Shown piece by piece: positions 34,648 through 53,012 of a DNA stretch of 64,000 nucleotides. Below the pieces are notes generated by a model, which saw nothing but the letters and a program-made list of their open reading frames with translations, was not told the origin of the DNA and ran no database searches. The stretch comes from an uncultured Alphaproteobacteria bacterium (GTDB taxonomy: Bacteria > Pseudomonadota > Alphaproteobacteria > Rhodobacterales > Rhodobacteraceae): positions 166,001 to 230,000 of the forward strand of contig CAVYZK010000001.1 in assembly GCA_963772935.1 (NCBI GenBank), read 5' to 3'. How positions within the stretch are numbered: the stretch's first letter is position 1; every line of letters begins with the position of its first letter. Both the position numbers and the translations under genes were made by a program.

Positions 34648-34775
34648 GAACAGGGTTCCTCCTCGTGCCTTTGGAAAAGGATCACCCACAGCGCAGTCGA
34701 ACGGGTAATAGCGGTTTCCTTGACAGGCTAGAACGAAAGCGACTAACTGTTCGAGGCAAGAATGGAGCCGACGTG

Positions 34776-35732: not shown

Positions 35733-35755
35733 ACGGTAATCCTATTGCTGGCGGG

Positions 35756-39046: not shown

Positions 39047-39159
39047 GGCGACGGTCCTTTTGAAGATTTGCGCACAAATTCGCAGAACTGGCGCTGCTTG
39101 GGAAAGAACAAAGGCTGCTTGCGCCTAGCAGAACTCGCTATGGGCAGGCTGTTTGACAT

Positions 39160-40089
39160 TCAGAACACCGCCTCCATGGACGACTGAATGGCTTTTGCAC
39201 GATTGAAGATGGCCTCGGACAAAATCTCAGGCAACCGGTGTTCGGGCGTGCTGGGACGCAGAAGCGCAATCGTGCGCACCATGGCAGGCTCACTGATCAT
39301 GCTGATCGAAAAACGCCCCTCAGCGGCATCTGTCGCCACGGAATGGTAGGGCAGTATTGTGGCAAAATCACCCGAAGTGCCGTCCAGCATCGCTTTCACT
39401 GCGTTCAGGCTGTCAAGCTCAAGCGCGGGCACCAACGGGATGCCGCGTGTGGCTGCCACCGCGTCGATGATGCGGCGCAGTTGATGGTGGGCACTGGGCA
39501 GGATCAAGCGTTGGCGGGAAAGGTCATCCAACGTCAAAGGATGGGTGGATTGCCTCTGCCCGGCCAGCACCAGCTTTTCCGATAGAAGGTTGGTCACATC
39601 CAGACCGTCGGTATCAGGCTGGCTGTAAGTCAGCGCCAGATGCAACCGCCCGCAGGCCATAAGACTGCGAAGATCGCCGGAATAAGCCTCTATCACCGTA
39701 AGGGTCAAAGTTGGCGCAGACTGACGCAGCGCCTCTTGCAGAGGTGCCAGAAACAGCGGTGCGATGGTGGGGCAGATGCCAAGGCTGACATGCGCAGGGC
39801 CTGCCCCAAAATCGCGCTGCACCCGCTCGATCAGCAGATCAAGGCTTTCCAGATGCAATCGCGCACCGCTCATCAGTGCGGCTCCTGCCTCGGTTGGCAC
39901 GGCGTTGCGACCATTGCGGGTGAACAACTCCATCCCCAACTCGTGCTCCAGCAGTTGTACCTGCCGGGTCAGGGCGGGCTGCGCGATACCGATCACCGGG
40001 GCAGCCTTGGAAAACCCGCCATTGTCGCAGACCGCCACAAAGTAGCGCAGCCGCCGGATGTCCACACCGGGTTTTTCCAACCGTCCCAT
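39160..40089 (-). CDS. LysR-family transcriptional regulator
   Basis: 'IRRLRYFVAVCDNGGFSKAAPVIGIAQPALTRQVQLLE' HTH. The ATG lies 3 nt after the transporter stop (TAG-CGG-ATG). Confidence 0.85.
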   Translation of the reverse strand: MGRLEKPGVDIRRLRYFVAVCDNGGFSKAAPVIGIAQPALTRQVQLLEHELGMELFTRNGRNAVPTEAGAALMSGARLHLESLDLLIERVQRDFGAGPAHVSLGICPTIAPLFLAPLQEALRQSAPTLTLTVIEAYSGDLRSLMACGRLHLALTYSQPDTDGLDVTNLLSEKLVLAGQRQSTHPLTLDDLSRQRLILPSAHHQLRRIIDAVAATRGIPLVPALELDSLNAVKAMLDGTSGDFATILPYHSVATDAAEGRFSISMISEPAMVRTIALLRPSTPEHRLPEILSEAIFNRAKAIQSSMEAVF

Positions 40090-40092: not shown

Positions 40093-41967
40093 CTACCGCC
40101 CCTCAACGCTGCGCGCCGAAACTCGGGTCAGGCTAGAGGCGATCCAGTCGGGCGCCGTTTTGCTGGCTGGATCATCCAACACCACCCGGCGCAGGCCCTG
40201 ATCCGACGTTGTGCCAAGCTGCGCGCCATAGGTCAGCCACCAGACCAGCGGCACGCCAATCAGCCAGAACAGCAATTGCCAGACCCAAAGGGATGGCACA
40301 CCCAAGGCGGCATCGCCGGTGGTGAAAATCGGCTGGCTGAAAAAGGTGTTCCCCAGGATCGCCCCCGGCCCCAAGGCGAAGAACGCCCAGATCAAGGTCA
40401 GTGACCATTTCGCGTTGCGCGCGGGCTTGGTCCCGAAATCGACGCGCCATGTTGCAGCAAATTCATCATGCAGGCGGTCGCGGTGCCTGCGTTCGGCCCC
40501 GCTGCGGGTGAAGATTGCAACCAGCAGCACCGCACCGACGTTGAAGGCAAGTCCCCAGGCGGCAGAGTGGATGGTCAACGGCCAGCGACCCCATGGCAAA
40601 TCCACAAACAGCCCCTCAAACAGGATCAGGCCCAGTGGTTCGGTGAACAGCACCATCAGCCCGCCAAAGATCAGGCCGACCAGAACCGCACTGCGGCTGA
40701 TCCAGCGCAGGAAGGTGAGGCCCAGAAACGCAGGCAGCATCTGCACCGCCAAGGGCAGGGCAAGGCTGCCGAAGACCGCTGACGCGAGGGGCGCAAAGGC
40801 GGCAAGGGCCGCCACAAGCGCAAAGGCGATGGCCAGAGTGACACGAATGGTCAGCCGGGCCTTGGCAGGCGACAGATCGGGCAGAACATATGGCAAGATC
40901 ACGTCGCGGCAGACCAATATCGCGCCTGAGGTGGTAAAGAAAGCGACCGCCATCTGCGCTGTGACGATCACAAGCAGCAGAAGGCCAACCCCGGCAAATG
41001 GCTCTATCACGCCGAGTTCGGCGGCAAGCGCCGCTGGCCCCTGCCCCATCCGCAACGCGAGCATCGGCCCCGCGATCAGCAGCACCCCCGTCAGTAACGC
41101 CGCAATCAGCCAGACCGGCGCAAACCCCGCGCTCCGCCCGGCCCGCGCCGTCATGCCAAGGAACAAGAATCCCGGCGACAGCACGATCCCGATCAGCGAC
41201 AGCGCGGCCGACGCAATCCCGACCCCGGTGAAGATGCCACCCTGTGGCGCGCCTTTACCGATGCCCGCCGAAAACTGGATCACGCCGGGGATCTGGTCGG
41301 CAAGGATGCCCGTAGCGACGGGCATTGCAGCAGTGGGAAATCCCGGCCCACTCAACATCAACGCGCCGAACCCGGCCAAACCCGGAAGCAGCACGACCAG
41401 CAGCACCGATTGCAGCGCCAACACCAGCACGGTGGCACGCCAACCGCCGATCACGGCAGGCAGGAACAAAAAGAACGCCGTCACCCAGATTGCCGTGGCG
41501 CGGGGCACAGCACCATTCGTTGCCTCCGCCAGCAGCCCGCCCAGTTGTGCCAGCAGGTTAGCGGCAAAGGGCAAGCCGAACAGCAGTGCCAGCGTCAGCA
41601 TCACGATGCGCAGCGACACGCTTTGATAATAGCGTCCCAGCGCCTCGCCGGGGCTGGACAGCCCGGCAATCCGCGCCGCCAACCAAAGGCGTTTTTGCAG
41701 CAGCAGCGCGGTCAGGGCGGCAAGGATCAGGCCAAGGGCGATGTGACTGGCTTGCAAACCGAAGCGGTTGATCAGGGCAAGATGGTCAGACAGACCCATA
41801 CCCGCCACCATCACCCCGGCCGAAGCAAAGCTGACTGCCCAGCCGGGCAGATCAGCCCCCGCGTCACCGAAACTCGCAGGCGCAGGCGCGGCGCGGGCCA
41901 CGAGGGCCGCAAGATACACCCCGACAGCCACCAGAAAGGCGAGCGTCATGATCAGGAACGGCGTCAC
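40093..41967 (-). CDS. large polytopic membrane transporter, sodium:solute symporter (SSF)-like
   Basis: About 624 aa with at least 12 hydrophobic segments and a Gly/Ala/Leu-rich composition. GTG start forms a GTGA overlap with the upstream small-protein stop. The family call is tentative. The track start at 42306 is rejected because it overlaps. Confidence 0.5.
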   Translation of the reverse strand: MTPFLIMTLAFLVAVGVYLAALVARAAPAPASFGDAGADLPGWAVSFASAGVMVAGMGLSDHLALINRFGLQASHIALGLILAALTALLLQKRLWLAARIAGLSSPGEALGRYYQSVSLRIVMLTLALLFGLPFAANLLAQLGGLLAEATNGAVPRATAIWVTAFFLFLPAVIGGWRATVLVLALQSVLLVVLLPGLAGFGALMLSGPGFPTAAMPVATGILADQIPGVIQFSAGIGKGAPQGGIFTGVGIASAALSLIGIVLSPGFLFLGMTARAGRSAGFAPVWLIAALLTGVLLIAGPMLALRMGQGPAALAAELGVIEPFAGVGLLLLVIVTAQMAVAFFTTSGAILVCRDVILPYVLPDLSPAKARLTIRVTLAIAFALVAALAAFAPLASAVFGSLALPLAVQMLPAFLGLTFLRWISRSAVLVGLIFGGLMVLFTEPLGLILFEGLFVDLPWGRWPLTIHSAAWGLAFNVGAVLLVAIFTRSGAERRHRDRLHDEFAATWRVDFGTKPARNAKWSLTLIWAFFALGPGAILGNTFFSQPIFTTGDAALGVPSLWVWQLLFWLIGVPLVWWLTYGAQLGTTSDQGLRRVVLDDPASKTAPDWIASSLTRVSARSVEGR

Positions 41968-42431
41968 CGGCGCTCCCCCCGGTTCAGGCGCGAGGCACGG
42001 CGGGGGTTGTTGTCGCGGATGATGTCGAACCGTGCAAACGCATCGCGGGTGCCAAAGCGCGTCAGCATGTAGAACACGGCGGCTAGCAGCAGGACGATCA
42101 TCCCCCCTGCCACCGGCAGAAAGAACCGCGCGGCAAAGCCGTCGCCCAGCAATACCGCCAGAACCAGTGCCACCAGCCCGGTCGCATAGACCACCATCGC
42201 CAGCCCCACCTCGCGCGGGGTGAAACCCGTGCCCAGTGTGGCATTGACGATCACATGCGCCGCAAACCCCGCTAGCAAGGCGGCGAACCCGCCCGCCACC
42301 CACCACGCGCCACCGGGGCCAAAACCGTAGTGCAGCAGCCCCAGTGCCACGAACCCCGCAGGCAGCCAGACCGCCAGCACCAGCGCGTGACGGTCCAGCC
42401 GCATGGTGGCCTCATCCTCTGACGACATCAT
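41964..42431 (-). CDS. small integral membrane protein (about 4 TM), unknown family
   Basis: 155 aa with four hydrophobic segments and a basic tail '...NNPRRASRLNRGERR'. Translationally coupled to the transporter gene. Confidence 0.5.
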   Translation of the reverse strand: MMSSEDEATMRLDRHALVLAVWLPAGFVALGLLHYGFGPGGAWWVAGGFAALLAGFAAHVIVNATLGTGFTPREVGLAMVVYATGLVALVLAVLLGDGFAARFFLPVAGGMIVLLLAAVFYMLTRFGTRDAFARFDIIRDNNPRRASRLNRGERR

Positions 42432-42444: not shown

Positions 42445-44650
42445 TCAGTCGTCATCCTTGTCGGCCTTCGGGGCCGGAACCGGCGCGAAGTTGCGGAAGG
42501 ACATGCCGCCCGCCGAGCCAAGGTTCTTCAGCGGCAAGCCGATTTCCTCCATCAAGCCCGTCCACGAAGGCCACTTGGGTGCGGTACTTCATCGCTGAAT
42601 TCACCACCTGATCGGACACATTGCCACCGCCGCCGCCACCGGACCCGCCAGAGCCGGTTTCAGATGGGCTGTTCAGCCCCGGCAAACCATCGACATGCAG
42701 GATCTTGATGCTGTCGATGTTTTCCATCGGCTTGACGGTTTCCTTGATGATCGCAGGCAGGGTCTTGACCAGATGTTCGTAGATTGCCGACCGGCGGCTT
42801 TCGTCGTTCCGCATGTTCTCGGCATCATTCAGCTTGCGCTGACCTTCCGCGTCAGATTCGTAGCGCACGTCTGCCGCATGGGCCTCGGCAATCTCGGCCA
42901 GGGCGCGCTGTTCCACAGCCTGCTTATCGGCCTCGGCGGCGCGGACCGTGCGCAGGGCATCGCGTTCGGCCGCGGATTCAGCCGCGATAATCTCCACCCG
43001 CGCGTTTCGGTTGGCACCTTCCTCCGCGCGCACCGTCGTGACCTGTTCCTCGGCCACCGCCAGCACGCGGCGGGCCTCGGCCTCGGATGTGCGCACCACG
43101 GCCTCTTCGATGGCCTTGTTGACCACGGCAATCAGGCGCTGCTTGTCGGCCAGTTCAATCTCCATGTCCTGCTCGATCACAAAGCGGTCGATGTATTTCT
43201 GCGCGGCGATCCGCAGTTCTTCCACCTCGCGCGAGGCCACGATCTGCGCATCCTCGACCCGCCGGAAGCTGAGCGTTTCGGCCAGTTTGATCTTCTGCTG
43301 CTTGGCGATTTCCTGTTGCGCGACTTCCTCGTCGGCCTTCACCCGGTCAAGGTCAACCGCCTGCCGCTTGGCGATGACGGCGCGTTCCTGTGCCGCCGCC
43401 GCCTGTTCGTTTGACACGCGGATGTCGCGGCCCTTGGCCACCTCCAGCAGTTCGATCTCCATCGAGGTGGCGATGCGCGCGGCTTCCACCTCGCGGTCAC
43501 GGTCAAGGCGGGCCTGTTCAATCTCGCCCGTCGATTTCACGTCATAAACCTCAAGCTCCAGCCGCGATTTGATCTCGGCCTCCTTGATCTGGCGGTCGCC
43601 TTCGATGCGGTCGGATTCGACCTGCTGGCGGGTCTGGATGCGCTGTGTTTCAAGCGCCGAGCGTGAGGCAATCTCGGCCAGTTCAGTATCTTTCTGCCGC
43701 TCAATCTCCAGACTGCGGGTGTCGTTTGCCGCACGGATGCGTTCGGCCTCCACCGCCTGATCGGTGGTGATGCGCAGGCGTTCGGATTCCTCTTGCGCGC
43801 GCACCTTGGACTGGTTGATCGAGATGGCGGATTGCGCGCGTTCGGCCTCGATCTCGGCCAGTTGGGCTGCCTTGCGGATTTCGATGGCCCGGCTTTGGTC
43901 GATGCGGGCGTATTCCAGATCGCGGTCGATTTCCAGGGCACGGCTGGCGGCCTCGTAATCCTTTTGCTTGATGTCGATGCGGGCCTCATTCTCAATCCGG
44001 TTGCGGATCTTGCGGCGGTCCTCGATCTGTTCGGTAAGCTGGGTCAACCCCTCGGCGTCAAAGGCGTTGGACGGGTTGAACACCGAAATATCCGATTGGT
44101 TCAGCGCGGTCAGCGAGGCGTTTTCCAGCTCCAGCCCGTTGGTGCCAAGCGTGGCCCCAGCCTGTTCGGCCACCCGACGGATATATCCTGCACGGTCCTG
44201 ATGAATTTCCTCCATCGTCATGCTGGCCGCAACGGATGCCATGGCGTCGATGAACCGGCTTTGGATGATTTCCTTCAGCGCCATGGGTTCCTGGGTGCGT
44301 GCGCCAAGGGTGCGGGCGGCGGTGGATACACCCTCTTTGGTCGCAATCACCCGCACGAAGAACTCGGCGGAAATATCCACCCGCATCTTGTTGCGGGTGA
44401 TCAGCGATTGTTCCCCCACCCGGCGGATTTCCACCGGGATGGCGTTCATGTTCACCACCGTGATGTCATGGATGATCGGGATCACCAGCGCCCCCCCGCC
44501 CATCACCACACGCTCGCCACCAGACCCGGTGCGCACAAAGCTTTGGTCCTTGGACGAATGGCGATACAGCCAGTGCAGCAGATAGACCCCGACCGCGATC
44601 AGGATCGTCAGAAGTATCAGAATGGCAATTGCATCAGCGCCGGTCATCAT
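42445..44650 (-). pseudogene. flotillin / SPFH-domain protein (YqiK-like), 1-nt frameshift about 35 codons before the stop
   Basis: N-terminal TM segment plus 'FVRTGSGGERVVMGGGALVIPIIH' (compare YqiK 'FVRTGLGGQKVVMSGGAIVMPIFH'), then a long Glu/Ala/Arg coiled coil. After '...YRTQVAFVDGL' the YqiK-like tail 'MEEIGLPLKNLGSAGGMSF...KADKDDD' is in a different frame, with its stop at 42445-42447. Confidence 0.8.
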
Positions 44651-44683: not shown

Positions 44684-45376
44684 TCAATACCGTTCCTGGC
44701 CAGCGACGGCCAAAACGATCAGCGACGGGGTGATCAGGTTGATCAGGTCGAACAGGGTATAGAGGGCAATCACACCGGGGGCTTGGCCCGCGCCGATCAC
44801 CACATCGACAAAGTGCAGGATCGGGTAGATCGCCCAGCCGATGGTGAAGATCAGGCGTATCCAGAAATAGCCCAGACGCACGGCCCGGCTGCCCTTGCGG
44901 ATGGCATCGGGCATCGCCCCGAAATACATCTCGCCCAGAATATACAGCCAGAACCCGATGGACAGCAGCGCGCCAAGCGTGGGGTTGAAGAACGCGGCAT
45001 CGCCCAGATAGCGTGAAAACACCATCAACAGCGCCGCCGCCGTCATCCGCCAGAACACGCCCACCGGGATTTTCCCCATGCTGCGGGCAAAGAAGTAGAC
45101 CGCCGCCACCTGCAAGGGCTGCACGGTGAACCAGCCGGAAAACCGGATGCCGCCACTGGCCTTGCCCGCCATCAGCCACAGCGATGTGGCCCCGGCATAG
45201 TGCAGCGCGCTCGCCAGCGCCGCCACTCCCACCATCGCCACCGGCAACCGCCATTTGTCACCCGACCATGTCAGGCCCAGAAAGCACAGGATCGCGGTAG
45301 AGAACGTCGCCAGCAAGGCCGCCGCAAAGGCGCTGCTGACCACATCTTGCGAGGTATACAAAGCTCCGAACATCAT
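44684..45376 (-). CDS. proteorhodopsin/xanthorhodopsin-fold 7-TM protein lacking the retinal-binding lysine (opsin-like, K->L)
   Basis: Collinear with green proteorhodopsin as recalled: 'ALHYAGATSLW', 'RFSGWFTVQPL', 'LLMVFSRYLGDA', 'GWAIYPILHF', 'YTLFDLINLITPSL'. Leu214 (CTG 44735-44737) replaces the Schiff-base Lys. AGGAAGG upstream of ATG 45376. Confidence 0.7.
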   Translation of the reverse strand: MMFGALYTSQDVVSSAFAAALLATFSTAILCFLGLTWSGDKWRLPVAMVGVAALASALHYAGATSLWLMAGKASGGIRFSGWFTVQPLQVAAVYFFARSMGKIPVGVFWRMTAAALLMVFSRYLGDAAFFNPTLGALLSIGFWLYILGEMYFGAMPDAIRKGSRAVRLGYFWIRLIFTIGWAIYPILHFVDVVIGAGQAPGVIALYTLFDLINLITPSLIVLAVAGQERY

Positions 45377-45385
45377 GTGCCCTTC

Positions 45386-46769
45386 CTAGACTTGCGCTCT
45401 GATATGCGGCGATCGGCCATACAGCGCGACCATCGGCAAGATCAGCAGACCGAAGATGAATTGTTGCCATTCGTATTTCAGGCCGATCCCGATCAGGAAT
45501 GATGACAGCACCTGAAGCACCAGCACCCCGATCACGGTGAACCCGTAGCCACCGTTGCCGCCAATCAGCGAGGTGCCGCCAATGACCACTGCCGCCAGCG
45601 TGGTGAACAGATAGGGATCGCCCACCCCGATGAACCCGCCGCCCGACCACCCCAGCAGCAGCGATCCGGTCAGGGCGGCAAACACGCCCGACAGGGTGTA
45701 GGCGAGGGTCCAGTATTTGAACTCGCGACACGCCGATCAGCTTGGCTGACCGACGGTTGCCGCCAAGCGCATAGATGTAGCGACCGTAGGCCGAATAGCG
45801 CAGCGCCACGATCACGATAATCGCCAGCACGATCCAGATCAGGATGGTGGGCGGAAAGCCAAGGCCAAAGGTCTGCCCGTTCATCGCCGCCAGATTCTGC
45901 AACCACGGCGGCACCGTGCCGAACACGTTGCCGCCAAAGGCCGACCCGATGGAGGTCAGGATCTGCGTCAGCCCCGCCACCGCAAACCCCATGCCCAGCG
46001 TCATGATCAGCGCCTGCCCTTGCAGTTTGTAACTGAGCACCCCGTTGATGAACCCGATCACCCCGCCGATGATCAGCACAAACCCCGCCGCCACGAAGGA
46101 TGGCACCCCAAGGCTGATCAGGAACAAAAGCCCGATGTTGGATGCCCCGATCACGAAGGGGATCGACAGGTCCAGCCCCCCCATCAGCGCCACCAGCGTC
46201 TGCCCGATACAGGCGATGCCAAGGAAGGCCGCGAACAGCAGGATCGCCTTGATGTTGGGGCCGGACAGGAACCCCTCAATCGTGAAGGATGAAATCACGA
46301 TCAGGGCCACCAGCACGATCAACCCGATAAACGCGGAACGGCCCGTGGCGAACTGGCCCGAGACTTTGAAGGCGAACAGCAAGATCGCCTCCAGCACCAG
46401 AAAGGCGATCAGGTTGGTGATCGACCGGAACTCTGGCACAGTGGCCGTGACGATCAGATAGACCAGCAAAAGCAGGACCATGGCGATGATCAGCACCCGG
46501 TTGGACCGCCAGACCCCGGCGGTTTTCGGTGCCGGATCGCGCACCACCGCGCGCGTCTCGAACATCACCGCGATGTAGTTCAGCAGCCACAGCAGCACGG
46601 CGACCGAGATCACCGTCGAAAGGATCACGGTCTGCGCCTTGACCCCCTGCCCAAAGCCAAGGCCAAAGCCGATGGCGGCGACGATCAGGGCCAGCGCAAG
46701 GTTCATCCAGATCAGAAAACCCGAGCGGGGAATGGGGATCAGGTGCTGGCGTGGTGGCAGATCGGTCAT
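45386..46769 (-). pseudogene. sugar-type ABC permease with about 130-aa extra N-terminal TM region, 1-nt frameshift near 45720-45733
   Basis: Core motif 'LVALMGGLDLSIPFVIG'. The reading frame is good to '...GGNRRSAKLIGVS'. It continues in another frame as 'REFKYWTLAYTLSGVFAALTGSLLLGW...'. Span is 1384 nt (3n+1). ATGA overlap with the preceding permease. Confidence 0.8.
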
Positions 46770-48113
46770 GGCGCGCCTCCGTCAAACAGGGTCAGAGGGC
46801 CTTGGCCCGCGACCACGGCGAACAGCGCCACGATCAGGACCGCCACGAAGATATACAGAAACAGCCCCATCCGTTTCGCCCGCGCCTCGGCGTTGATCAG
46901 GCGCGCGGCAAGGGCCAGCACGACGGCGGCAAAGGCGGCAAGGAAGGCGACCTTCTGGATCGGGGAAAGGGTCAGGCCAAGGCCGGATGTCCCAGCAGGG
47001 GACACCAGCAGATAACGGGTCAGCAGATCGCCGGGCGCTGCCGCCATGATCGGTTCGGCGGGCAGGTAGATCGCAGATGTTGCCACATGCAGCATGATCC
47101 CGACCACCCCGCAGGCCAGCACCACAAACGCACCCCAAGGCGAGATGAAGGAAATGTGCCGCCCGATCACCGGCACCAGCAGCGTCAGCAGCAGCGACGC
47201 CATCAGGATCAACCCGTAGGCCATCTGCGTCACAAACGCCTGCACCGCGCCAAAGTTGAACGTCGCCAGCACATAGCCGATCAGGTACAGGTTCAGCGCC
47301 CCCAGCAGCGCCCCAGTCACCCCGCCGCGCCCGCCTGCCAGACTGACCCCGCCCAGCACCAAGCGCCGTGGTTGCGGTCAGCGTCATGTTGGTGCCTTGG
47401 GTGGGGTCGCCCGAGGCGATCAGCGCCGTGTAGCAGATCGCACCCAAGCCCACGAAAATCCCGGCAATCACATGCGCGCCGATGCGCACGATGTTGATGC
47501 GCACGCCGCTGGTCCAGGCGGCGCGCTCGTCATAGCCCATCATCCGCAGGTTGGCGTAAAACGGCGTCAGCGTGAACAACAGCCACCCCGCCGTGGCAAG
47601 CAGCACGATCAGCAGCACGGGCGAGAATATGGTGGCCCCAAGGCCCCAGCTTGCCATGAACTCTGGTGCCACACCACCGGGGCGGGGCAGGATCACCAGG
47701 TTGATGCCGGTCAGTGCCAGAAACCCCGACAGCGCCACGATGATCGGCTGCACCCGCACCCAGATCACGATGGCGGCGAACAAAAGCTGGTACAGAACCC
47801 CGATGCCGATTGCCACGAAGAACACGCCGAATGGGCCCGTCACCACCTCCAGCCCGTTCAGTTTGACGATGCTGACGTTGATGAAGGCCAGCAGCGGCCC
47901 CACCGCCAGATCAACCGTGCCGCGACCCGCCACCGCCAGCGCCATCAGCGCATAGGTGGCCAGCGTCAGCGGGGCCGCCACGATGATCGCCGACCCGAAC
48001 CCCGACAGCGACACAAGGCTGGGCCCCCGCACCGCCGCGATGCCCAGAAGCACCGCGATCAGCAGGATCGGCACCAGCAGATAGGTGCTTGTCGAGGAGG
48101 ATCGTTCCGACAT
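46766..48113 (-). pseudogene. sugar-type ABC permease with about 115-aa extra C-terminal TM region, 1-nt frameshift near 47360-47375
   Basis: The frame is good to '...GDPTQGTNMTLTA'. It then continues in another frame as 'VLGGVSLAGGRGGVTGALLGA...', the conserved permease motif. Span is 1348 nt (3n+1). Confidence 0.8.
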
Positions 48114-48177: not shown

Positions 48178-49116
48178 TCAGAGATCAATCACCCGACGCC
48201 CCGCAGGGCGCGGTGACGAGGATGGGGACGACGCAGGGCCAGACAGCGCACGCCCTCCACCCCGGCGTTCGGGATCGTTCTGCACGATCTTTTTCAGCAC
48301 GGGGCTGATCACATCCTTGAACTTCACCGGGTCTTCCGATGTCGGGAAATGCCCGCCCGAGAAGATGATGGTTTCAGACCCCTTCACCTTTTCTGCCGTC
48401 CGCAAGGTCATTTCCGGCGTGCAGGCAAAGTCATATTCCCCGGTCAGGAAATAGATCGGCGTGCGGCCAGAGATCTTGTGAACGGTGTCGCGGAAATCGC
48501 TGTCCACGGAGTAGAAATAGAGGTCGCCCTTGAAGATGCCGGGCCCGCCCTGGGCATAGTACCACCATGTTTCCCAACGATAATCATCCGGGCTTTCCGG
48601 CGACATCAGGCCGAAGGTGCTGGTCGCCACAGCCTCGCCGCCATGGATATGCGGGTGATGCAGCGGGTAAATCCACCAGCCGGGGGAATAGTCGCAAGCC
48701 TCAAGCGCGATGAAGGCCGAAAACTCGTTTTCATACTTCAGCGCCAGTGCCAGACAGATGTTGCCGCCCATGGATTGCCCCATGATCACCGGCTTTTTCA
48801 GATCAAGCGCGCGGCAGAAGGCGACGATGAATTCGGTGTAGAATTTCGTCGTCAGCTTGTACTCATCCTCCATCAGATGGAAATCTGCGGGCGGAATCGA
48901 CTTGCCATGCCACGGCATGTCAAAGGCGATCATGCGGAAATTGGCGGACATGTCCGGGTCGCACATCTGGTGGCGATACTGCCGCCCGTCGGTGCCTGCG
49001 GTGTGCAGGCAGACCATCGGGATGCCCTCGCCATGTTCTTCGTAATAGGTCCGGTAGGTCTTGCCCTCGCAGGTGACATAGACGTAGCGGCCAATGATGG
49101 GGTCGTGCTGGTTCAT
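48178..49116 (-). CDS. alpha/beta-fold hydrolase
   Basis: 'VCLHTAGTDGRQY' and nucleophile elbow 'GQSMGG', 312 aa. The last 30 or so residues are low-complexity (Pro/Ser/Gly/Arg). Confidence 0.75.
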   Translation of the reverse strand: MNQHDPIIGRYVYVTCEGKTYRTYYEEHGEGIPMVCLHTAGTDGRQYRHQMCDPDMSANFRMIAFDMPWHGKSIPPADFHLMEDEYKLTTKFYTEFIVAFCRALDLKKPVIMGQSMGGNICLALALKYENEFSAFIALEACDYSPGWWIYPLHHPHIHGGEAVATSTFGLMSPESPDDYRWETWWYYAQGGPGIFKGDLYFYSVDSDFRDTVHKISGRTPIYFLTGEYDFACTPEMTLRTAEKVKGSETIIFSGGHFPTSEDPVKFKDVISPVLKKIVQNDPERRGGGRALSGPASSPSSSPRPAGRRVIDL

Positions 49117-49126: not shown

Positions 49127-49531
49127 TCACACTTCGCGCATCAGGGACAGCATCCGCGTCAGCGCGCGCATGTTCTGCCAGAACGGCAGGGTGTTGCCGT
49201 CGATCACCAACTGCTTGTGCAGCGGGTGCGCCATCGCCCAGATGTCGTTGAACATCGGCGGCGGGATTTTCATGCTGAACTTGGCCCAGGCGCTGGATGG
49301 CGCGCGCAGGGCAAAGTCGAACCCCATGTCATTGGGGGTCAGTCCTTCGGAAATGCGGGTGATCTTGCCCCCCCGCACCTCGACCAGAAATTCTGTCTCA
49401 TCCACGCCCAGAACAAAACGGTTGGTAAAGAATTTGGCCGTGACCGGCAAAATCCTGTCTTCATTGACGCAGCGCGCCCAGCGTTCGACCCATTCCAGAT
49501 CGAAACCTTTTCTGCTGCCGTATTTACTCAT
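49127..49531 (-). CDS. small soluble protein, SCP2/sterol-carrier-like (tentative)
   Basis: 134 aa with AGGAGG upstream of ATG 49531. The pattern '...FLVEVRGGKITRI...FALRAPSSAWAKF...LVIDGNTLPFWQNMRAL' resembles the SCP2 fold. Confidence 0.4.
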   Translation of the reverse strand: MSKYGSRKGFDLEWVERWARCVNEDRILPVTAKFFTNRFVLGVDETEFLVEVRGGKITRISEGLTPNDMGFDFALRAPSSAWAKFSMKIPPPMFNDIWAMAHPLHKQLVIDGNTLPFWQNMRALTRMLSLMREV

Positions 49532-49562: not shown

Positions 49563-50090
49563 TCATGGGGTTGGCAAAGGTTTGCGGGCCGGGCCGTAAA
49601 CCGCTGTGAAAGAAGCCTGATCAATCGCCACCGGCAGTACGGCAGCGGCGAAAGCCGCGAGGTCAGCCCCCGGTGCTATATCCACGCGGGCCGTCTTCAA
49701 CGCATAAAGCGTGAAGACATAGCGGTGCTGGCGGTCGGGCGGCCAAGGCCCGCCCCAACCGCGCCCGAAGCCCGGAATGCCGAAGGTCACAAAATCGGAA
49801 TTCAGCTCTGCCGCAGGGGACGGCATCGCAAGGCTGTTGCTGGCACCCTCAGCCAGTTCGCGGATATGACCCGGAATGTCATGAACCAGCCAATGCGCGA
49901 AACTGCGGGGAAAGTTGAAGGCGGCCGGCAGGTCGGGGTCGGTGACGGCCAGCGCAAAACTTTGCGTCCCCTCGGGTACCCCCGACCAGCGCAGGGCGGG
50001 CGAAGTGGGGCTTTCTTCGACAAAGCGGTCAGGGACAGTGGACCCTTGCGGAATGTCGGGGGCGGTCAGCAGGAAACCGGATTGGTTCAT
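49563..50090 (-). CDS. YbhB/YbcL-family PEBP (Raf-kinase-inhibitor-like) protein
   Basis: 'SPALRWSGVPEGTQSFALAVTDPD', 'HWLVHDIP' and 'GPWPPDRQHRYVFTLYAL' are PEBP hallmarks. It has its own ATG 50090 with GAGGA upstream. The upstream ATPase frame runs into it without a stop. Confidence 0.7.
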   Translation of the reverse strand: MNQSGFLLTAPDIPQGSTVPDRFVEESPTSPALRWSGVPEGTQSFALAVTDPDLPAAFNFPRSFAHWLVHDIPGHIRELAEGASNSLAMPSPAAELNSDFVTFGIPGFGRGWGGPWPPDRQHRYVFTLYALKTARVDIAPGADLAAFAAAVLPVAIDQASFTAVYGPARKPLPTP

Positions 50091-51709
50091 AGCATCCTCG
50101 GCTGGTTTGGGGCGGGTCAGGGGCACGACGCGCGCAGCGGGGCGGCCATCGTCACGCGGGGGGGTGCGGGGTGTGTCAGGGGCGTCAGCGGTCAGCGGCT
50201 CGGCCGCCCGGCGGCCAAACATCGCGTTCAGGATGACATGACCATCAAACGGCGGGTCAAAATCGGCAGAAATCGAGCCATTGCGAAACACATGCACCCG
50301 TGAACACAGGTTCATGAATTCCTCGATTTCAGACGACAGGAACACCACCGCATTCCCCCGCGCGGCGAAGTCGCGCAGGTTGCGGTAGAGGTCCAGCTTC
50401 GCCCCGATATCAATGCCGCGCGCCGGATCATTCAGCACCAGCACTGTCGGCTTTTCGGCAAAGGCCCGTGCGATCAGCACCTTTTGCTGGTTGCCGCCCG
50501 ACAGCGAGGTGATCAGGTTTTCCGGCGACCCCATCTTCACCGCCAGCTTGCCGGTCTCCCAATCAAAGATCGGTCCCAGCTTGGTACGGTTGATCAGGTT
50601 CAGCCAGCCCCCCGCGCGGTAGGTGCGATAGATCGGCAGCGCCAGATTTTCAAAGATGCCAAGGTTGGCAAAGATACCCTCTTTCTTGCGGTCGCCCGAG
50701 ACGTAGCGATGCCGTTTTCGCGCGCGGACCGCAGGTCGGTGACGGGTTCGGCCACCCCGTCGCGCACCACCGCGATTTGCCCTGACACCAGCGGCGCGAC
50801 CCCGGCCATTGCCCGCACGAATTCGGCCTGCCCCTGCCCATCCAGCCCGGTGATCCCCACCACTTCGCCGGGGAACAGCGTAAAGTCAAAAGCCGCACCA
50901 TCGGCCCAAACCTTGGCCGCCACCATCCGCAACACCGGCAGATCAGAGGACCGGCTGGCCGAAACCTGTGACCCTTGCGCCTTCTCGCGCTCCGGCCCTG
51001 CGATCAGCGCCAGGATGCGCGCTTCAGTAATTTCGTCCTTCTCCAGCGTCCCGACCGTGCGGCCATCGCGCAGCACCGTGGCGCGGTCGGCGATGCGCAC
51101 CAGTTCGGCGATGCGGTGTGTGACGATCATGATGGAACAGCCGCGCGCCTTCATCTGACGCATCTTGCGGAACAGCCGTTCGGTGGAATCGAAATCCAGT
51201 GCCGCCGAAGATTCGTCCAGGATCAGCACCTTGGGGTCGGTCAACAGCGCGCGGCCAATGGTGATCCATTGCTTGATCGACAGGGGCAACTCGCCCGCAG
51301 GTACATCCAGATCGAGATCGAAGCCCAGCAGTTCCGCCATCAGAGCAGATGCCCGCGCGTAGCGTTCTTCGCGGCTGACCGACGACCCCAGCAGGCCGTC
51401 CGCCCCAAGATAAAGGTTGTCCAGCACCGAACATTCATCGGCCACCAGCACTTCCTGAAATACGTTGGAAATCCCCAACTCCCGCGCCTCATGCGGCGAG
51501 GTGGCAGATTTGCCCAGGATAGCAACCTGCCCTTCGTCGGGGATCAGCACACCGGAAATCACCTTGGCGAGGGTACTTTTGCCAGACCCGTTGCCGCCGA
51601 TGATCGCATGAACCTCGCCCTCATAGGCGCGCAGCGATACCCCGCCCAAAGCCACGGTCGGGCCGAAGGTCTTGCGGACCGCAGATATTTCGACCGTGAC
51701 GACAGACAT
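50091..51709 (-). pseudogene. two-NBD sugar ABC transporter ATP-binding protein, 1-nt frameshift near 50698-50712 and no stop of its own
   Basis: NBD1 has 'GGNGSGKST' and 'LILDESSAALD'. After '...ARENGIA' the expected 'YVSGDRKKEGIFANLG...' is in another frame. NBD2 has 'LSGGNQQKVLIARA' and 'LVLNDPARGID'. Start at 'MSVVTVEIS' (51709). Confidence 0.8.
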
Positions 51710-51818: not shown

Positions 51819-53012
51819 TTACGGCTTGGGATGCGAGGCCGGATCATAGGCCTCGGGATCGGCGGGTCGCAGGAAGAACTGGTCAAGATAGGCCTTGCCC
51901 GCCCAAGCCTCGATCCCAGGATGATACCATCCGTCGGAATCCTCGCTGCAATCTTCGGGGATCGCCGCCATCATCTCATCTTTGGTCATCATGATCGGCG
52001 TGGTCAGGATCGACTGAATCTTCGGCCCCTGCCCTTCCAGCGTCCGCATCATGATGTCCCAGATCATTTCAAAATCATCCCCCGGTGGCCAGGCATGCAG
52101 GGCCGAAGAAATGAAATCAGGGTTGTGCCGCCAGTAGCACAGCGCGCCCAGTTCTGACCCGATGGTGATTGGCACCATATCGCGCCCGGACTGCTTCATC
52201 GCACGCAATGCGCCCAGTTCGGACGCGGATTGAATGATGATGCCGTTCAACTCGCCCGGATTGGTTGCCATCCATTTCTGAACTTCGGCCTGCGCAACCT
52301 GATCGGTCCACATGCCTGCAACCTGCCCCTTGATGGCAATGTCAGGATGTTCAGCAAGGGCCGCCTGAATACCCACGTTCTGGCTGTCAGACGCCGACGC
52401 GCCGGGGATGCCCTCGACCACCAGCACATTGCCCTTGCCGCCGATCTCATTCGCCATCCAGTCGCCCATCATCCGCCCGCCGACCACAAAGTTGGCCGAG
52501 GAGTTGACCGCATAGGGGCTGGTCAGGTAGCCGATGCCGGAAAACACCGGCACCCCTTTGGAATGGGCATATTCCACCGTCTGGTTCAGCGCGGTGGGGT
52601 TGGAACAACAGACGATGATCGCATCAACCCCTTGATCGACCAACTGGCGCATCTGCTGAATCTGCGTCGAGTCGTTCAAATTGGATTGCGTAACAATCAC
52701 TTCCGAGATCAGTCCCAGCTTTTGCCACTTCGGGATGATCTCATTCTGCAAACGGTCCATCACCCCTGCCCGCCAGGTATTGCCCGCATAGCTGCTGGCA
52801 TAGCCGATCTTCCATGGCGGCGGGTTCTTTGCCACAAAGTCACGGTAAGCACTGTCGGCAATCGGCTGGTTCGGGTCCAGCAATGCCGGATTGTAAAGTT
52901 TGTCCTGAATATCCTGCGGAAGTTCCGTTACATCAGCAACGGCCTGACCCGCTGCGGCGACCGATGCGCAAAGCACTATCGTTCGCAGCACAGCTGCGTT
53001 CATGCGTTTCAT
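51819..53012 (-). CDS. sugar ABC substrate-binding protein (type I periplasmic binding fold)
   Basis: Signal 'MKRMNAAVLRTIVLCASVAAAGQAVA' and GGAGG upstream of ATG 53012, 397 aa. The track start at 53297 is rejected. Confidence 0.8.
   Translation of the reverse strand: MKRMNAAVLRTIVLCASVAAAGQAVADVTELPQDIQDKLYNPALLDPNQPIADSAYRDFVAKNPPPWKIGYASSYAGNTWRAGVMDRLQNEIIPKWQKLGLISEVIVTQSNLNDSTQIQQMRQLVDQGVDAIIVCCSNPTALNQTVEYAHSKGVPVFSGIGYLTSPYAVNSSANFVVGGRMMGDWMANEIGGKGNVLVVEGIPGASASDSQNVGIQAALAEHPDIAIKGQVAGMWTDQVAQAEVQKWMATNPGELNGIIIQSASELGALRAMKQSGRDMVPITIGSELGALCYWRHNPDFISSALHAWPPGDDFEMIWDIMMRTLEGQGPKIQSILTTPIMMTKDEMMAAIPEDCSEDSDGWYHPGIEAWAGKAYLDQFFLRPADPEAYDPASHPKP

What the first reader, a model, noticed from the sequence alone, without database searches (positions are those of the whole stretch)
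44684..45376. Proteorhodopsin-fold protein without the Schiff-base lysine or the proton acceptor/donor residues (DTE -> GVA, K -> L)
The 230-aa ORF aligns by eye helix-by-helix with green proteorhodopsin (PR), as recalled:
- helix B: 'SALHYAGATSLW' vs PR 'AFWHYMYMRGVW'
- helix C: 'IRFSGWFTVQPLQVAAVYF' vs PR 'FRYIDWLLTVPLLICEFYL'
- helix D: 'LLMVFSRYLGDA' vs PR 'LVMLVFGYMGEA'
- helix E: 'GFWLYILGEMYFG' vs PR 'LAWVYMIYELWAG'
- helix F: 'TIGWAIYPILHF' vs PR 'IFGWAIYPVGYF'
- helix G: 'ALYTLFDLINLITPSLIV' vs PR 'LIYNLADFVNKILFGLII'

The helix-G Asp is kept (D210). The retinal-binding Lys position is Leu214 (CTG, 44735-44737), and there is no Lys anywhere in helix G. The PR Asp97, Thr101 and Glu108 equivalents are Gly81, Val85 and Ala92.

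No retinal or carotenoid biosynthesis genes (blh, crtEIBY) are in the window. The protein therefore cannot bind retinal covalently or pump protons in the canonical way. It is nevertheless an intact, Shine-Dalgarno-preceded ORF inside an operon whose neighbours carry frameshifts. Lysine-less opsin homologs have been noticed in sequence surveys, but to my knowledge they have no assigned function.
Basis: partly seen in the sequence, partly recalled or inferred. Interest (0 to 1): 0.85.

Follow-up and report, generated by a model that had tools for sequence, protein, structure and literature searches.

The report
Lysine-less flotillin-associated rhodopsin (FArhodopsin)
This gene encodes a rhodopsin-shaped membrane protein that cannot bind its usual light-absorbing cofactor; it belongs to the recently named, function-unknown "flotillin-associated rhodopsins", and here it turns up in a lineage with culturable relatives, where its job could be tested genetically.

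Summary
Window 44684-45376(-) is an intact 229/230-aa seven-helix microbial-rhodopsin homologue (Pfam PF01036, E=1.6e-8). It has Leu at the Schiff-base lysine site and Gly/Val/Ala at the Asp/Thr/Glu pump positions.

It is not an orphan. Its best sequence and structure match is PsFAR (PDB 9R21). It lies 33 nt upstream of a flotillin gene, within the gene set of the marine "FAR cluster". It therefore belongs to the flotillin-associated rhodopsins (Haro-Moreno 2023; Kovalev 2025), whose lysine-less members (Gln/Thr/Leu/Arg) are already published.

Leu214, Arg122 and Asp210 are invariant in 121 homologues (64-94% identity), and dN/dS is 0.07-0.17. This is an old, selected state, not a decayed pump.

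The contrast "intact among frameshifted neighbours" means little. The window carries about one single-base indel per 2.6 kb, and undoing the indel in each of the three genes tested restores a full-length protein.

What I add:
- The clade occurs in at least 154 species genomes, including about 24 cultured Rhodobacterales and Hyphomicrobiales (Mesorhizobium, Paracoccus, Roseovarius).
- It always sits in the same 11-gene operon.

Function is inferred only: a retinal-free partner of flotillin serving a transport microdomain.

The parts
44684..45373 (-). FArhodopsin CDS, lysine-less (Leu) type, 229 aa. An alternative ATG at 45376 gives 230 aa.
   Evidence: ORF confirmed. PF01036. Best PDB hit is 9r21_A PsFAR, E=2.6e-32. 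AF2 model has pLDDT 88.4 and 7 TM helices. Foldseek top hit is 9r21_A, TM 0.90.
45381..45387 (-). Shine-Dalgarno-like AGGAAGG, 4-8 nt before the two ATGs. It overlaps the TAG stop of permease 2.
   Evidence: Read directly from the sequence.
44735..44737 (-). Codon CTG = Leu214, at the position of the retinal Schiff-base lysine (PR K231 / PsFAR K213).
   Evidence: Alignments. Invariant in 121/121 homologues. Codons CTC/CTG/CTT/TTG/CTA are used across 77 CDS.
45134..45136 (-). Codon GGC = Gly81, at the proton-acceptor position (PR D97 / PsFAR D79).
   Evidence: The family has Ala (79) or Gly (42) here.
45119..45121 (-). Codon CAG = Gln86, at the position of PsFAR His84, the residue that fills the retinal polyene channel.
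   Evidence: Alignment. The family has His 102 / Gln 17. The role of H84 comes from Kovalev 2025.
45011..45013 (-). Codon CGC = Arg122, at the position of PsFAR Glu120 (beta-ionone ring site; Gly in proteorhodopsins).
   Evidence: Alignment. Invariant in 121/121. Also Arg in the distant Arg-variant clade.
42445..44650 (-). Flotillin gene (SPFH/Band_7 + Flot domains), 33 nt downstream of the FAR. As sequenced it carries a 1-bp insertion at 42556, so the ORF reads 42452..44650.
   Evidence: Pfam. 42% identity to the SAR11 FAR-cluster flotillin. Removing base 42556 restores 734 aa with a C-terminus identical to L002.
41964..42431 (-). 155-aa, roughly 4-TM membrane protein of unknown family, conserved after the flotillin.
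   Evidence: Syntenic wherever the held sequence reaches that position. No Pfam match. Hydropathy.
40093..41967 (-). ~624-aa polytopic membrane protein, a distant relative of sodium:solute symporters. Its GTG start overlaps the stop of the previous gene.
   Evidence: 28% identity to the SAR11 FAR-cluster 'sodium/solute symporter'. The orthologue on the P. gei plasmid hits PF00474 SSF at 26.6 bits. Start determined.
39160..40089 (-). LysR-family regulator, same strand, 3 nt after the previous gene.
   Evidence: Pfam on the L002 orthologue. Synteny. Spacing.
45386..46769 (-). ABC permease 2 (CUT2 type, BPD_transp_2) with an N-terminal extension of extra TM helices. There is a 1-bp insertion at ~45726.
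   Evidence: Indel. Repaired length 460 aa.
46766..48113 (-). ABC permease 1 (CUT2 type) with a C-terminal extension. There is a 1-bp insertion at 47361.
   Evidence: Indel. Repaired length 448 aa.
48178..49116 (-). Alpha/beta hydrolase (enol-lactonase-like family).
   Evidence: Pfam and NCBIfam on the L002 orthologue. 43% identity to the SAR11 FAR-cluster hydrolase.
49127..49531 (-). Small soluble protein, orthologue of the SCP2 sterol-binding-superfamily protein of the marine FAR cluster.
   Evidence: 32% identity to SAR11-cds04. No direct Pfam hit.
49563..51709 (-). Duplicated-ATPase ABC subunit (CUT2 type) fused to a C-terminal PEBP domain. There is a 1-bp deletion at ~50705.
   Evidence: Pfam and NCBIfam on the intact L002 orthologue (716 aa). 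Indel. Start determined.
51819..53012 (-). Periplasmic substrate-binding protein (Peripla_BP_4) with a signal peptide; first gene of the operon.

Best explanation
**Shown.** The gene encodes a member of the flotillin-associated rhodopsin (FArhodopsin) family, in its lysine-less (Leu) branch. It keeps the seven-helix proteorhodopsin fold. It has lost the Schiff-base lysine together with that lysine's aspartate partner: Lys->Leu and Asp->Gly/Ala, a charge-neutral pair of losses. It carries polar or bulky side chains (Gln/His86, Arg122) at the two positions that block the retinal pocket in PsFAR. This state is old and under strong purifying selection.

The gene lies in a tightly packed 11-gene operon, conserved wherever the held sequence reaches. 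Its order is:
1. sugar-type (CUT2) substrate-binding protein
2. ATPase-PEBP fusion
3. SCP2-like protein
4. alpha/beta hydrolase
5. permease 1, unusually long
6. permease 2, unusually long
7. FAR
8. flotillin
9. 155-aa membrane protein
10. SSS-like carrier
11. LysR regulator

**Inferred.** The protein binds no retinal and does nothing with light. It most likely acts as a structural or regulatory 7-TM oligomer (a pentamer, by analogy with PsFAR). It would work with the co-translated flotillin to assemble or stabilise a membrane microdomain. That microdomain would hold the operon's own uptake machinery for a small ester- or lactone-like substrate.

The identity and the no-retinal part I hold at about 0.9. 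The scaffold-for-transport mechanism I hold at about 0.4.
For: **Family identity**
- phmmer against PDB gives PsFAR 115 bits (E=2.6e-32) against at most 68 bits for any proteorhodopsin.
- tblastn gives SAR11 FAR and PsFAR 114 bits each against 75 bits for BPR.
- The AF2 model (pLDDT 88.4) has 9r21_A as its top Foldseek hit, TM 0.90, rmsd 1.5.
- It shares the helix-E motif 'LGE' with PsFAR (PRs have I/L-Y/F-E) and lacks an N-terminal leader.

**Genomic context**
- The flotillin starts 33 nt downstream on the same strand.
- Flotillin, SCP2, hydrolase and SSS-like proteins of the SAR11 FAR cluster all have orthologues in the window operon, at 28-43% identity.
- All 78 loci with sequence downstream of the FAR have the flotillin next to it, and the full gene order recurs wherever the contig reaches.
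- The same core (SBP-ATPase-permease-permease-FAR-flotillin-small protein-SSS-like) recurs around FARs only 39-42% identical, on plasmids of Pararhizobium, Hoeflea and Martelella.
- Operon gaps range from -4 to 109 nt.

**Selection**
- Leu214, Arg122, Asp210 and Asn213 are invariant in 121 sequences.
- dN/dS is 0.07-0.17, and the Leu is encoded by five synonymous codons.

**No retinal**
- There is no lysine in helix G.
- PsFAR, which still has the lysine, binds no retinal because of H84 and E120. Only the double mutant regains binding (Kovalev 2025).

**Outer-surface hint.** Helices E and F are the most conserved (mean top-residue frequency 0.93 and 0.90, against 0.70 for helix A). Helix E lies on the outside of the PsFAR pentamer.

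**Substrate hint.** An enol-lactonase-like hydrolase sits in this operon. AttM lactonase, Fe-alcohol dehydrogenase and succinate-semialdehyde dehydrogenase sit in the plasmid variants. The SAR11 cluster has an AHL-lactonase-family gene and an Fe-ADH.
Against: - No experiment links any FAR to flotillin binding, to transport, or to any phenotype. Kovalev et al. found no obvious structural adaptation for flotillin binding.
- My NJ tree does not resolve whether the lysine-less clade is sister to the marine FARs; deep bootstraps are below 50%. Family assignment therefore rests on scores, signature residues and synteny.
- The high conservation of helices E and F could simply reflect core packing residues shared by all rhodopsins (W143, W181, Y184, P185).
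- I could not inspect model coordinates, so occlusion of the pocket by Gln86 and Arg122 is inferred from alignment only.
- Non-covalent binding of retinal or another hydrophobic ligand is not excluded.
- As sequenced, four operon genes, including the flotillin, are frameshifted. If those indels are real, the system would be non-functional in this particular strain.
Confidence: 0.55

Rival explanations
1. Light-independent lipid scramblase or lipid-handling protein. The retinal-free opsin fold would flip or bind phospholipids to shape the flotillin microdomain. It would act with the operon's lipid-binding-type proteins (the SCP2-like protein and the PEBP domain on the ATPase).
For: - A proteorhodopsin (ptqPR) has light-independent scramblase activity that benefits E. 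coli (PMC10730872).
- A retinal-free proteoopsin structure binds decanoate (8cnk, listed).
- The operon encodes an SCP2-superfamily orthologue and a PEBP domain.
- Flotillins are lipid-raft scaffolds.
Against: - No FAR has been tested for scramblase activity.
- Scramblase activity in opsins does not need a dedicated paralogue, so it does not explain the invariant Arg122, His/Gln86 or Leu214.
- PEBP and SCP2 annotations are fold-level only; the window protein itself has no direct SCP2 Pfam hit.
Confidence: 0.15
2. Chemosensor. The former retinal pocket, now lined by Arg122, His/Gln86, His188 and Asp210, would bind a small molecule such as the transported lactone, ester or fatty acid. Ligand binding would then gate or regulate the associated transporters, in the manner of a GPCR.
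For: - Polar residues are invariant or nearly so at pocket positions: Arg122 121/121, His188 119/121, His/Gln86 119/121, Asp210 121/121.
- Haro-Moreno et al. raise a GPCR-like sensing role for FARs.
- A retinal-free proteoopsin can hold a fatty acid (8cnk).
Against: - In PsFAR the equivalent region holds only small, fragmented, water-filled cavities.
- There is no signalling partner such as a transducer or kinase in this operon; the only regulator is a cytoplasmic LysR.
- Pocket geometry could not be examined here.
Confidence: 0.12
3. Modulatory subunit of a light-driven pump. The blind FAR would form hetero-oligomers with a canonical proteorhodopsin encoded elsewhere in the genome and tune its activity or spectrum. 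This is the idea proposed for marine FARs and for Rh-noK.
For: - Marine FAR-bearing single-cell genomes always had a proteorhodopsin paralogue.
- PsFAR and PsPR form similar pentamers.
Against: - No second rhodopsin and no retinal or carotenoid genes are in the 64-kb window.
- In the 4.6-Mb Shinella PSBB067 replicon, a proteorhodopsin tblastn query hits only the FAR locus. The same search was sensitive enough to find Polymorphobacter rhodopsins at 30% identity.
- The clade occurs in many Mesorhizobium species. By my own knowledge these are non-phototrophic soil and nodule bacteria.
- Whole genomes could not be scanned here.
Confidence: 0.08
4. A decaying, recently inactivated proton pump (pseudogene in the making), in keeping with the frameshifted neighbours.
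For: - All pump residues are missing.
- Four neighbouring genes carry frameshifts in the window.
Against: - Leu214 is invariant across 121 homologues down to 64% identity, and across orders of Alphaproteobacteria.
- dN/dS is 0.07 against the closest relatives.
- The ORF is intact in 76 of 80 loci at exactly 229 codons.
- The frameshifts are single bases. Undoing the indel in each of the three genes tested restores a full-length protein, and for the flotillin a C-terminus identical to that of L002.
Confidence: 0.02

Closest known systems
PsFAR, the flotillin-associated rhodopsin of Pseudothioglobus (PDB 9R21; Kovalev et al. 2025, bioRxiv 10.1101/2025.04.29.651185)
   Same: - Best sequence hit (31% identity, E=2.6e-32) and best structural hit (TM 0.90).
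- No N-terminal leader.
- Helix-E 'WLYILGE' motif.
- Bulky or polar residue at the H84 position, and a charged residue at the E120 position.
- Asp of helix G retained.
- Flotillin gene immediately downstream.
- Proton donor absent.
   Different: - PsFAR keeps Lys213 and Asp79 (a DTx motif); the window protein has Leu214 and Gly81.
- The E120 position is Arg, the opposite charge.
- The H84 position is Gln in this copy (His in most of the clade).
- The host is a 62%-GC Rhodobacterales-type genome, not a streamlined marine gammaproteobacterium.
Freshwater lysine-less FArhodopsins from lake metagenomes (Haro-Moreno et al. 2023, mSystems 8:e00008-23)
   Same: - Lysine replaced by Gln, Thr, Leu or Arg.
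- A flotillin gene follows wherever contigs are long enough.
- Some FAR-cluster genes are retained.
- The closest relatives of the window are freshwater genera and MAGs (Cypionkella, Pseudotabrizicola, Gemmobacter, Rhodobacter).
   Different: - Those sequences came from short, taxonomically unassigned contigs.
- I could not confirm sequence identity with their Leu subclade, because the stored supplementary alignment is truncated.
- Here the clade is tied to named, cultured Alphaproteobacteria. It also occurs in marine taxa: a SAR116 single-cell genome, Roseovarius and Ruegeria.
Green and blue proteorhodopsin (e.g. PDB 7B03, 4JQ6, 4KLY)
   Same: - Same seven-helix fold (TM 0.82-0.90).
- Conserved Arg (R78), Trp/Tyr/Pro packing residues of helices C, E and F, and the helix-G Asp.
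   Different: - No Schiff-base Lys, no proton acceptor Asp, no Thr101, no donor Glu.
- 22-26% identity only.
- No leader peptide.
- Flotillin operon context.
Rh-noK, the lysine-less xanthorhodopsin-related proteins of marine Betaproteobacteria (as described)
   Same: A natural microbial rhodopsin homologue lacking the retinal lysine, with unknown function.
   Different: [quoted passage not shown] It regains pumping when the lysine is restored.
- The window protein is PR/FAR-related: xanthorhodopsin-type structures score far lower.
- It has no adjacent rhodopsin and also lacks the acceptor and donor residues.
attKLM gamma-butyrolactone / GHB / AHL catabolic genes of Agrobacterium (my own knowledge of the pathway; gene names as annotated)
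   Same: - Plasmid-borne FAR operon variants carry AttM lactonase, an Fe-alcohol dehydrogenase and succinate-semialdehyde dehydrogenase around the same ABC-FAR-flotillin core.
- The SAR11 cluster has an AHL-lactonase-family gene and an Fe-ADH.
   Different: - The window's own operon has an alpha/beta-fold (enol-lactonase-like) hydrolase instead of AttM, and no Fe-ADH.
- The substrate link is by association only.

Membership tests
FArhodopsin (flotillin-associated rhodopsin) | Seven-helix type-1 microbial rhodopsin fold | tested here: met
   PF01036 scores 34.7 bits, above the 24.6-bit cut-off. The AF2 model has 7 TM helices and pLDDT 88.4. Foldseek hits to rhodopsins have TM 0.75-0.90.
FArhodopsin (flotillin-associated rhodopsin) | Closer to characterised FARs than to proteorhodopsins, by similarity scores | tested here: met
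   PsFAR 115 bits against at most 68 bits for PRs. SAR11 FAR and PsFAR 114 bits against 75 bits for BPR. 9r21_A is the top Foldseek hit.
FArhodopsin (flotillin-associated rhodopsin) | Monophyly with marine FARs in a phylogeny | tested here: inconclusive
   In an NJ/BLOSUM62 tree with 200 bootstraps, the lysine-less clade is supported at 100%. Its placement relative to PsFAR and the PRs has support below 50%.
FArhodopsin (flotillin-associated rhodopsin) | Flotillin gene immediately downstream on the same strand | tested here: met
   A flotillin (Flot + Band_7) starts 33 nt after the FAR stop. The same holds in all 78 related loci that have sequence downstream of the FAR.
FArhodopsin (flotillin-associated rhodopsin) | Shared FAR-cluster gene set (SCP2-like, alpha/beta hydrolase, SSS-type carrier, sugar-type ABC transporter) | tested here: met
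   SAR11 Table S2 proteins hit the window operon: SCP2 32%, hydrolase 43%, flotillin 42%, SSS 28%.
FArhodopsin (flotillin-associated rhodopsin) | Retinal pocket occupied by side chains at the PsFAR H84 and E120 positions | tested here: inconclusive
   At sequence level, Gln86 (His in 102/121 relatives) and the invariant Arg122 occupy these positions. Published FARs have an aromatic residue or His at H84, so Gln is a departure.
FArhodopsin (flotillin-associated rhodopsin) | N-terminal leader of proteorhodopsins absent | tested here: met
   The protein starts about 10 residues before helix A and aligns from PsFAR residue 8. PR representatives carry 20-35 extra N-terminal residues.
FArhodopsin (flotillin-associated rhodopsin) | No retinal binding, colourless protein | not testable with these tools
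   This needs expression with retinal and spectroscopy. Covalent binding is excluded by the absence of Lys in helix G.
FArhodopsin (flotillin-associated rhodopsin) | Canonical proteorhodopsin paralogue elsewhere in the genome (a feature of the marine members) | not testable with these tools
   Only 64 kb is available, and it holds no second rhodopsin. On the 4.6-Mb Shinella PSBB067 replicon a PR query hits only the FAR locus.
Proteorhodopsin proton pumps | Schiff-base lysine in helix G | tested here: not met
   Leu214 (CTG, 44735-44737). There is no Lys in helix G.
Proteorhodopsin proton pumps | DTE motif (acceptor Asp97, Thr101, donor Glu108) | tested here: not met
   Gly81, Val85 and Ala92.
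Rh-noK (lysine-less xanthorhodopsin relatives) | [quoted passage not shown] | tested here: not met
   Xanthorhodopsin/Gloeobacter-type chains score only 22-25 bits. The flanking genes are an ABC permease and a flotillin, not a rhodopsin.

The most novel reading that the evidence does not exclude
In non-phototrophic Alphaproteobacteria, including soil rhizobia, a rhodopsin fold that permanently lost retinal has been repurposed. It would be an obligate subunit of a flotillin-organised transport supercomplex made of the 14-TM CUT2 ABC permeases, an SSS-like carrier and a small membrane protein. In that complex it would sense or handle a lipophilic lactone, ester or lipid through the former chromophore pocket (Arg122/His86/His188/Asp210). 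That would be a light-independent, ligand- or lipid-directed function for a type-1 opsin, and the first defined client system for a bacterial flotillin.
Probability: 0.2. Interest if true: 0.8.

Novelty: new member of a known kind. Interest (0 to 1): 0.5.

Why it matters
FArhodopsins are abundant in aquatic bacteria, and one has a cryo-EM structure, but they have no known function. The groups studying them state that all producers are uncultivated, so work has relied on heterologous expression.

This window's protein belongs to a lysine-less FAR clade present in at least 154 species genomes. About two dozen are cultured strains, many of them type strains: Mesorhizobium spp., Paracoccus haematequi, Roseovarius, Ruegeria, Microbaculum, Cypionkella and Pseudotabrizicola, plus Shinella from the plasmid-collection and protein searches. 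Some clusters sit on plasmids.

That has three consequences:
- The question "what does a retinal-less rhodopsin do with a flotillin?" becomes directly testable by knockouts and pull-downs.
- The occurrence in many Mesorhizobium species and the absence of a proteorhodopsin-like gene on the 4.6-Mb Shinella replicon weaken the "twilight-zone, proteorhodopsin partner" idea, though no complete host genome could be scanned.
- The invariant operon points to a concrete client: an atypical ABC importer plus an SSS-like carrier, with lactonase-type enzymes.

The protein itself is not a new kind of thing.

Tried and rejected
- **NCBIfam scan of the FAR.** Only a sub-threshold, irrelevant hit.
- **NJ phylogeny.** Intended to place the clade relative to marine FARs and PRs, but the deep nodes are unresolved. 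I therefore do not claim monophyly.
- **Haro-Moreno supplements.** Searching for this clade's peptide motifs gave no hits. The stored alignment table is truncated to about 47 columns, so identity with their Leu subclade is unverified.
- **PDB sequence searches.** Nothing useful for the 624-aa membrane protein or the SCP2-like protein.
- **Relaxed Pfam scan of the 155-aa protein.** Nothing.
- **Promoter and terminator scan of the operon.** Counts are at shuffle level and uninformative. The only suggestive site is a terminator-like hairpin at 39131-39115 after the LysR gene.
- **Window ends.** The two 349-aa alpha/beta hydrolases at the window ends could have marked an inverted duplication, but there is no DNA similarity between them.
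- **Pseudogene or recent-inactivation reading.** Rejected on conservation and dN/dS.
- **"Intact ORF among decaying neighbours" as a sign of special selection.** Rejected, because the indel density is uniform, including outside the operon, and undoing the indel in each of the three genes tested restores a full-length protein.
- **Literature on FARs in cultured Alphaproteobacteria.** Nothing found in the held library.
Full report
**1. The observation**

The ORF 44684..45376 on the minus strand is present and intact, at 230 aa. All 120 closest database homologues are 229 aa and start at the second of two adjacent ATGs, so the likely CDS is 44684..45373. An AGGAAGG Shine-Dalgarno-like element lies at 45381-45387 and overlaps the TAG stop of the upstream gene.

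Pfam Bac_rhodopsin matches residues 19-220 at 34.7 bits, E=1.6e-8, above the 24.6-bit gathering cut-off.
- PR Asp97 -> Gly81
- PR Thr101 -> Val85
- PR Glu108 -> Ala92
- PR Asp227 -> Asp210
- PR Lys231 -> Leu214 (CTG, 44735-44737)

The window contains no second rhodopsin-like locus. Pfam scans of about 40 other ORFs found no carotenoid or retinal biosynthesis families. These ORFs encode ordinary heterotroph functions: ABC transporters, sulfonate-type oxygenases, CoA ligases and regulators.

**2. What it is**

The best match among all solved structures is not a proteorhodopsin. It is the "flotillin-associated rhodopsin" PsFAR (9r21_A): E=2.6e-32 and 115 bits, against at most 68 bits for any proteorhodopsin.

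An AlphaFold2 model built on 121 homologues is confident (pLDDT 88.4, pTM 0.85, seven helices). Its top Foldseek hit is again 9r21_A (TM 0.90, rmsd 1.5 A).

The next gene downstream starts 33 nt later on the same strand. It is a flotillin with Flot and Band_7/SPFH domains.

The family was named in 2023 (Haro-Moreno et al., mSystems). It covers proteorhodopsin paralogues of SAR11, HIMB59 and Pseudothioglobus that always sit next to a flotillin gene in a conserved cluster. That paper already reports that most freshwater members lack the lysine, with Gln, Thr, Leu or Arg in its place. A 2025 preprint solved PsFAR. It showed that PsFAR binds no retinal even with its lysine, because His84 and Glu120 fill the pocket, and only the double mutant H84V/E120G regains binding.

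In the window protein the His84 position is Gln86 (His in 102 and Gln in 17 of 121 relatives). The Glu120 position is Arg122, which is invariant. The helix-E motif WLYILGE is shared with PsFAR, whereas proteorhodopsins have I/L-Y/F-E. The N-terminal leader of proteorhodopsins is missing, as in FARs.

**3. The genomic context is the FAR cluster**

I took protein sequences of the SAR11 FAR cluster from the paper's Table S2. In the window operon, tblastn finds orthologues of four of them:

| SAR11 FAR-cluster protein | Identity | Window coordinates |
|---|---|---|
| Flotillin | 42% | downstream of the FAR (ORF 42452-44650) |
| Alpha/beta hydrolase | 43% | 48280-49116 |
| SCP2-superfamily protein | 32% | 49133-49492 |
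| "Sodium/solute symporter" | 28% | 41077-41862 |

Using intact orthologues from Cypionkella sp. TWP1-2-1b2 (L002) for annotation, the operon reads as follows:

| Gene | Window coordinates (-) |
|---|---|
| Sugar-type (CUT2) substrate-binding protein | 51819-53012 |
| Duplicated ABC ATPase fused to a C-terminal PEBP domain | 49563-51709 |
| SCP2-like protein | 49127-49531 |
| Alpha/beta hydrolase | 48178-49116 |
| CUT2 permease 1, about 450 aa with extra TM helices | 46766-48113 |
| CUT2 permease 2, about 460 aa with extra TM helices | 45386-46769 |
| FAR | 44684-45373 |
| Flotillin | 42445-44650 |
| 155-aa four-helix membrane protein | 41964-42431 |
| ~624-aa SSS-like carrier | 40093-41967 |
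| LysR regulator | 39160-40089 |

Gaps between successive genes range from -4 to 109 nt.

**4. Distribution and conservation**

A scan of one genome per species (185,579 species) found 154 genomes encoding a relative. I fetched the 80 best loci. The closest are Pseudotabrizicola sp. 4114 and Cypionkella sp. TWP1-2-1b2, at 93% protein identity and 86% DNA identity, colinear over 18.4 kb. The window therefore comes from a related member of the Paracoccaceae (Rhodobacterales).

About 24 of the 80 loci are from cultured strains:
- a dozen Mesorhizobium species and strains
- Paracoccus haematequi
- Roseovarius azorensis and another Roseovarius
- Ruegeria sediminis
- Albidovulum sediminicola
- Microbaculum marinum
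- Pseudohoeflea coraliihabitans
- Taklimakanibacter lacteus
- Pseudoxanthobacter

Roseovarius indicus and Shinella appear among the protein hits. Marine members exist too, including a SAR116 single-cell genome and roseobacters. All carry Leu at the lysine site.

All 78 loci that have sequence downstream of the FAR carry the flotillin next to it, and the full gene order above recurs wherever the contig reaches.

A more distant FAR clade is 39-42% identical and has Arg at the lysine site. It sits on plasmids of Pararhizobium gei, Hoeflea sp. IMCC20628 and Martelella. It keeps the same core: SBP-ATPase-permease-permease-FAR-flotillin-small protein-SSS-like (PF00474 hit at 26.6 bits). There the core is flanked by AttM lactonase, an Fe-alcohol dehydrogenase and, in Martelella, succinate-semialdehyde dehydrogenase.

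**5. Selection**

In 121 sequences at 64-94% identity, Leu214, Arg122, Asp210, Asn213 and Arg78 are invariant. Val85 and Ala92 are nearly so. Position 81 is Ala or Gly.

Across 77 coding sequences the Leu is encoded by CTC, CTG, CTT, TTG and CTA, so the amino acid itself is selected. dN/dS against twelve relatives is 0.07-0.17.

The loss of the lysine together with its aspartate partner (PsFAR K213 and D79, which are hydrogen-bonded) is charge-neutral. Helices E and F are the most conserved segments: mean top-residue frequency is 0.93 and 0.90, against 0.70 for helices A and B. Helix E lies on the outside of the PsFAR pentamer.

**6. The frameshifts**

Relative to both closest genomes, the window has private single-base indels at 34753, 35927, 42556 (flotillin), 44678 (intergenic), 45726 (permease 2), 47361 (permease 1) and ~50705 (ATPase). 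That is seven in 18.4 kb, two of them outside the operon. Another gene elsewhere is split in the same way (26707-27698).

Removing the single inserted base restores a 734-aa flotillin whose C-terminus is identical to that of Cypionkella. It likewise restores full-length permeases. These are therefore sequencing or assembly errors, or very recent events.

At this density a 690-bp gene is untouched with probability of about 0.77. The FAR being intact says nothing special.

**7. How it most likely works**

- *Shown:* family identity, impossibility of a Schiff base, long-term purifying selection, and obligate operon linkage with a flotillin and a transport system.
- *Inferred:* the protein is a retinal-free, light-independent 7-TM oligomer. 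Together with the co-translated flotillin it builds or stabilises a membrane microdomain for the operon's atypical ABC importer and SSS-like carrier. The recurrent lactonase-type hydrolases and attKLM-like genes hint at a lactone- or ester-like substrate.
- *Rivals, in order of weight:* a lipid scramblase or lipid-handling role (precedent in ptqPR, PMC10730872; SCP2 and PEBP in the operon); a small-molecule sensor using the polar former pocket; a modulator of a proteorhodopsin paralogue; a decaying pump.
  - The paralogue-modulator idea is weakened by the host range and by the single rhodopsin-like hit in the 4.6-Mb Shinella replicon.
  - The decaying-pump idea is refuted.

**8. Novelty and verdict**

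The protein is a new member of a known, recently described family. The lysine-less state, including Leu, is published.

What appears not to be in the literature I could search is threefold:
- This clade lives in culturable Rhodobacterales and Hyphomicrobiales. That runs against the statement that all FAR producers are uncultivated.
- It also occurs in marine taxa.
- It is locked into an invariant 11-gene transport operon.

Together these make the open question of FAR function experimentally tractable. Interest 0.5.

Noticed in passing
window 34753, 35927, 42556, 44678, 45726, 47361, ~50705; also 26707-27698: Private single-base indels occur about once per 2.6 kb relative to two 86%-identical genomes. 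They split the ABC ATPase, both permeases and the flotillin C-terminus, and a Peripla_BP_4 gene elsewhere is split in the same way. Undoing the indel restores a full-length protein in each of the three genes tested (flotillin, both permeases), so the indels look like sequencing or assembly errors rather than decay.
   Followed up: yes
window 61624-61740 (-): An ALIL pseudoknot (Rfam RF01497, 84.6 bits), the programmed-frameshift signal of IS3-family transposases. It implies an insertion sequence at roughly 60.5-62.0 kb.
   Followed up: no
window 49563-51709 (-); L002 3617-5767: The ABC ATPase of the FAR operon is fused to a C-terminal phosphatidylethanolamine-binding-protein (PEBP, PF01161) domain. 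This is an unusual architecture for a CUT2 sugar-type ATPase.
   Followed up: partly
window 45386-48113 (-); L002 7209-9991: Both CUT2 permeases are about 450-475 aa, against about 330 aa for typical family members. Permease 1 has extra hydrophobic helices at its C-terminus, and permease 2 at its N-terminus. The SAR11 counterpart is annotated with 14 TM helices.
   Followed up: partly
L082 (Pararhizobium gei plasmid p2), L083 (Hoeflea sp. IMCC20628 plasmid), L084 (Martelella sp. AD-3 plasmid): A distant Arg-variant FAR clade lies on plasmids, one of them conjugative. It keeps the same ABC-FAR-flotillin-SSS core, flanked by AttM lactonase and an Fe-alcohol dehydrogenase in all three, plus succinate-semialdehyde dehydrogenase in Martelella. 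That is an attKLM-like gamma-butyrolactone/GHB pathway.
   Followed up: partly
L043 (SAR116 single-cell genome AG-916-C06), L021/L022/L031 (Roseovarius, Ruegeria): Marine genomes carry the lysine-less (Leu) FAR. The 2023 survey reported that all marine FArhodopsins retain the lysine and occur in only three taxa.
   Followed up: partly
L032 (872-bp contig labelled Paenibacillus sp. SY21-1): An alphaproteobacterial-type FAR (64% identical) sits on a tiny contig of a Firmicute assembly. This is most likely a contaminant contig.
   Followed up: no
L081 (NZ_CP069303.1, Shinella sp. PSBB067): A 4.6-Mb replicon is filed as a 'plasmid' in PLSDB with only two annotated features. It carries the FAR operon, and no other rhodopsin-like gene is detectable with a proteorhodopsin query.
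   Followed up: partly
window 5303-10086 (-): A sulfonate-utilisation-like gene set: NMT1-type binding protein, ABC permease, luciferase-like monooxygenase, TauD-family dioxygenase and NADPH-dependent FMN reductase.
   Followed up: no
window 32663-39050 (-), downstream of the LysR gene: CoA-dependent catabolic genes follow the FAR operon: an acyl-CoA dehydrogenase (identified on the L002 orthologue), a MaoC/hot-dog dehydratase-like ORF and an HpcH/HpaI-type lyase. The region is colinear in the two closest genomes. These genes may process the product of the operon's transport and hydrolase steps.
   Followed up: no
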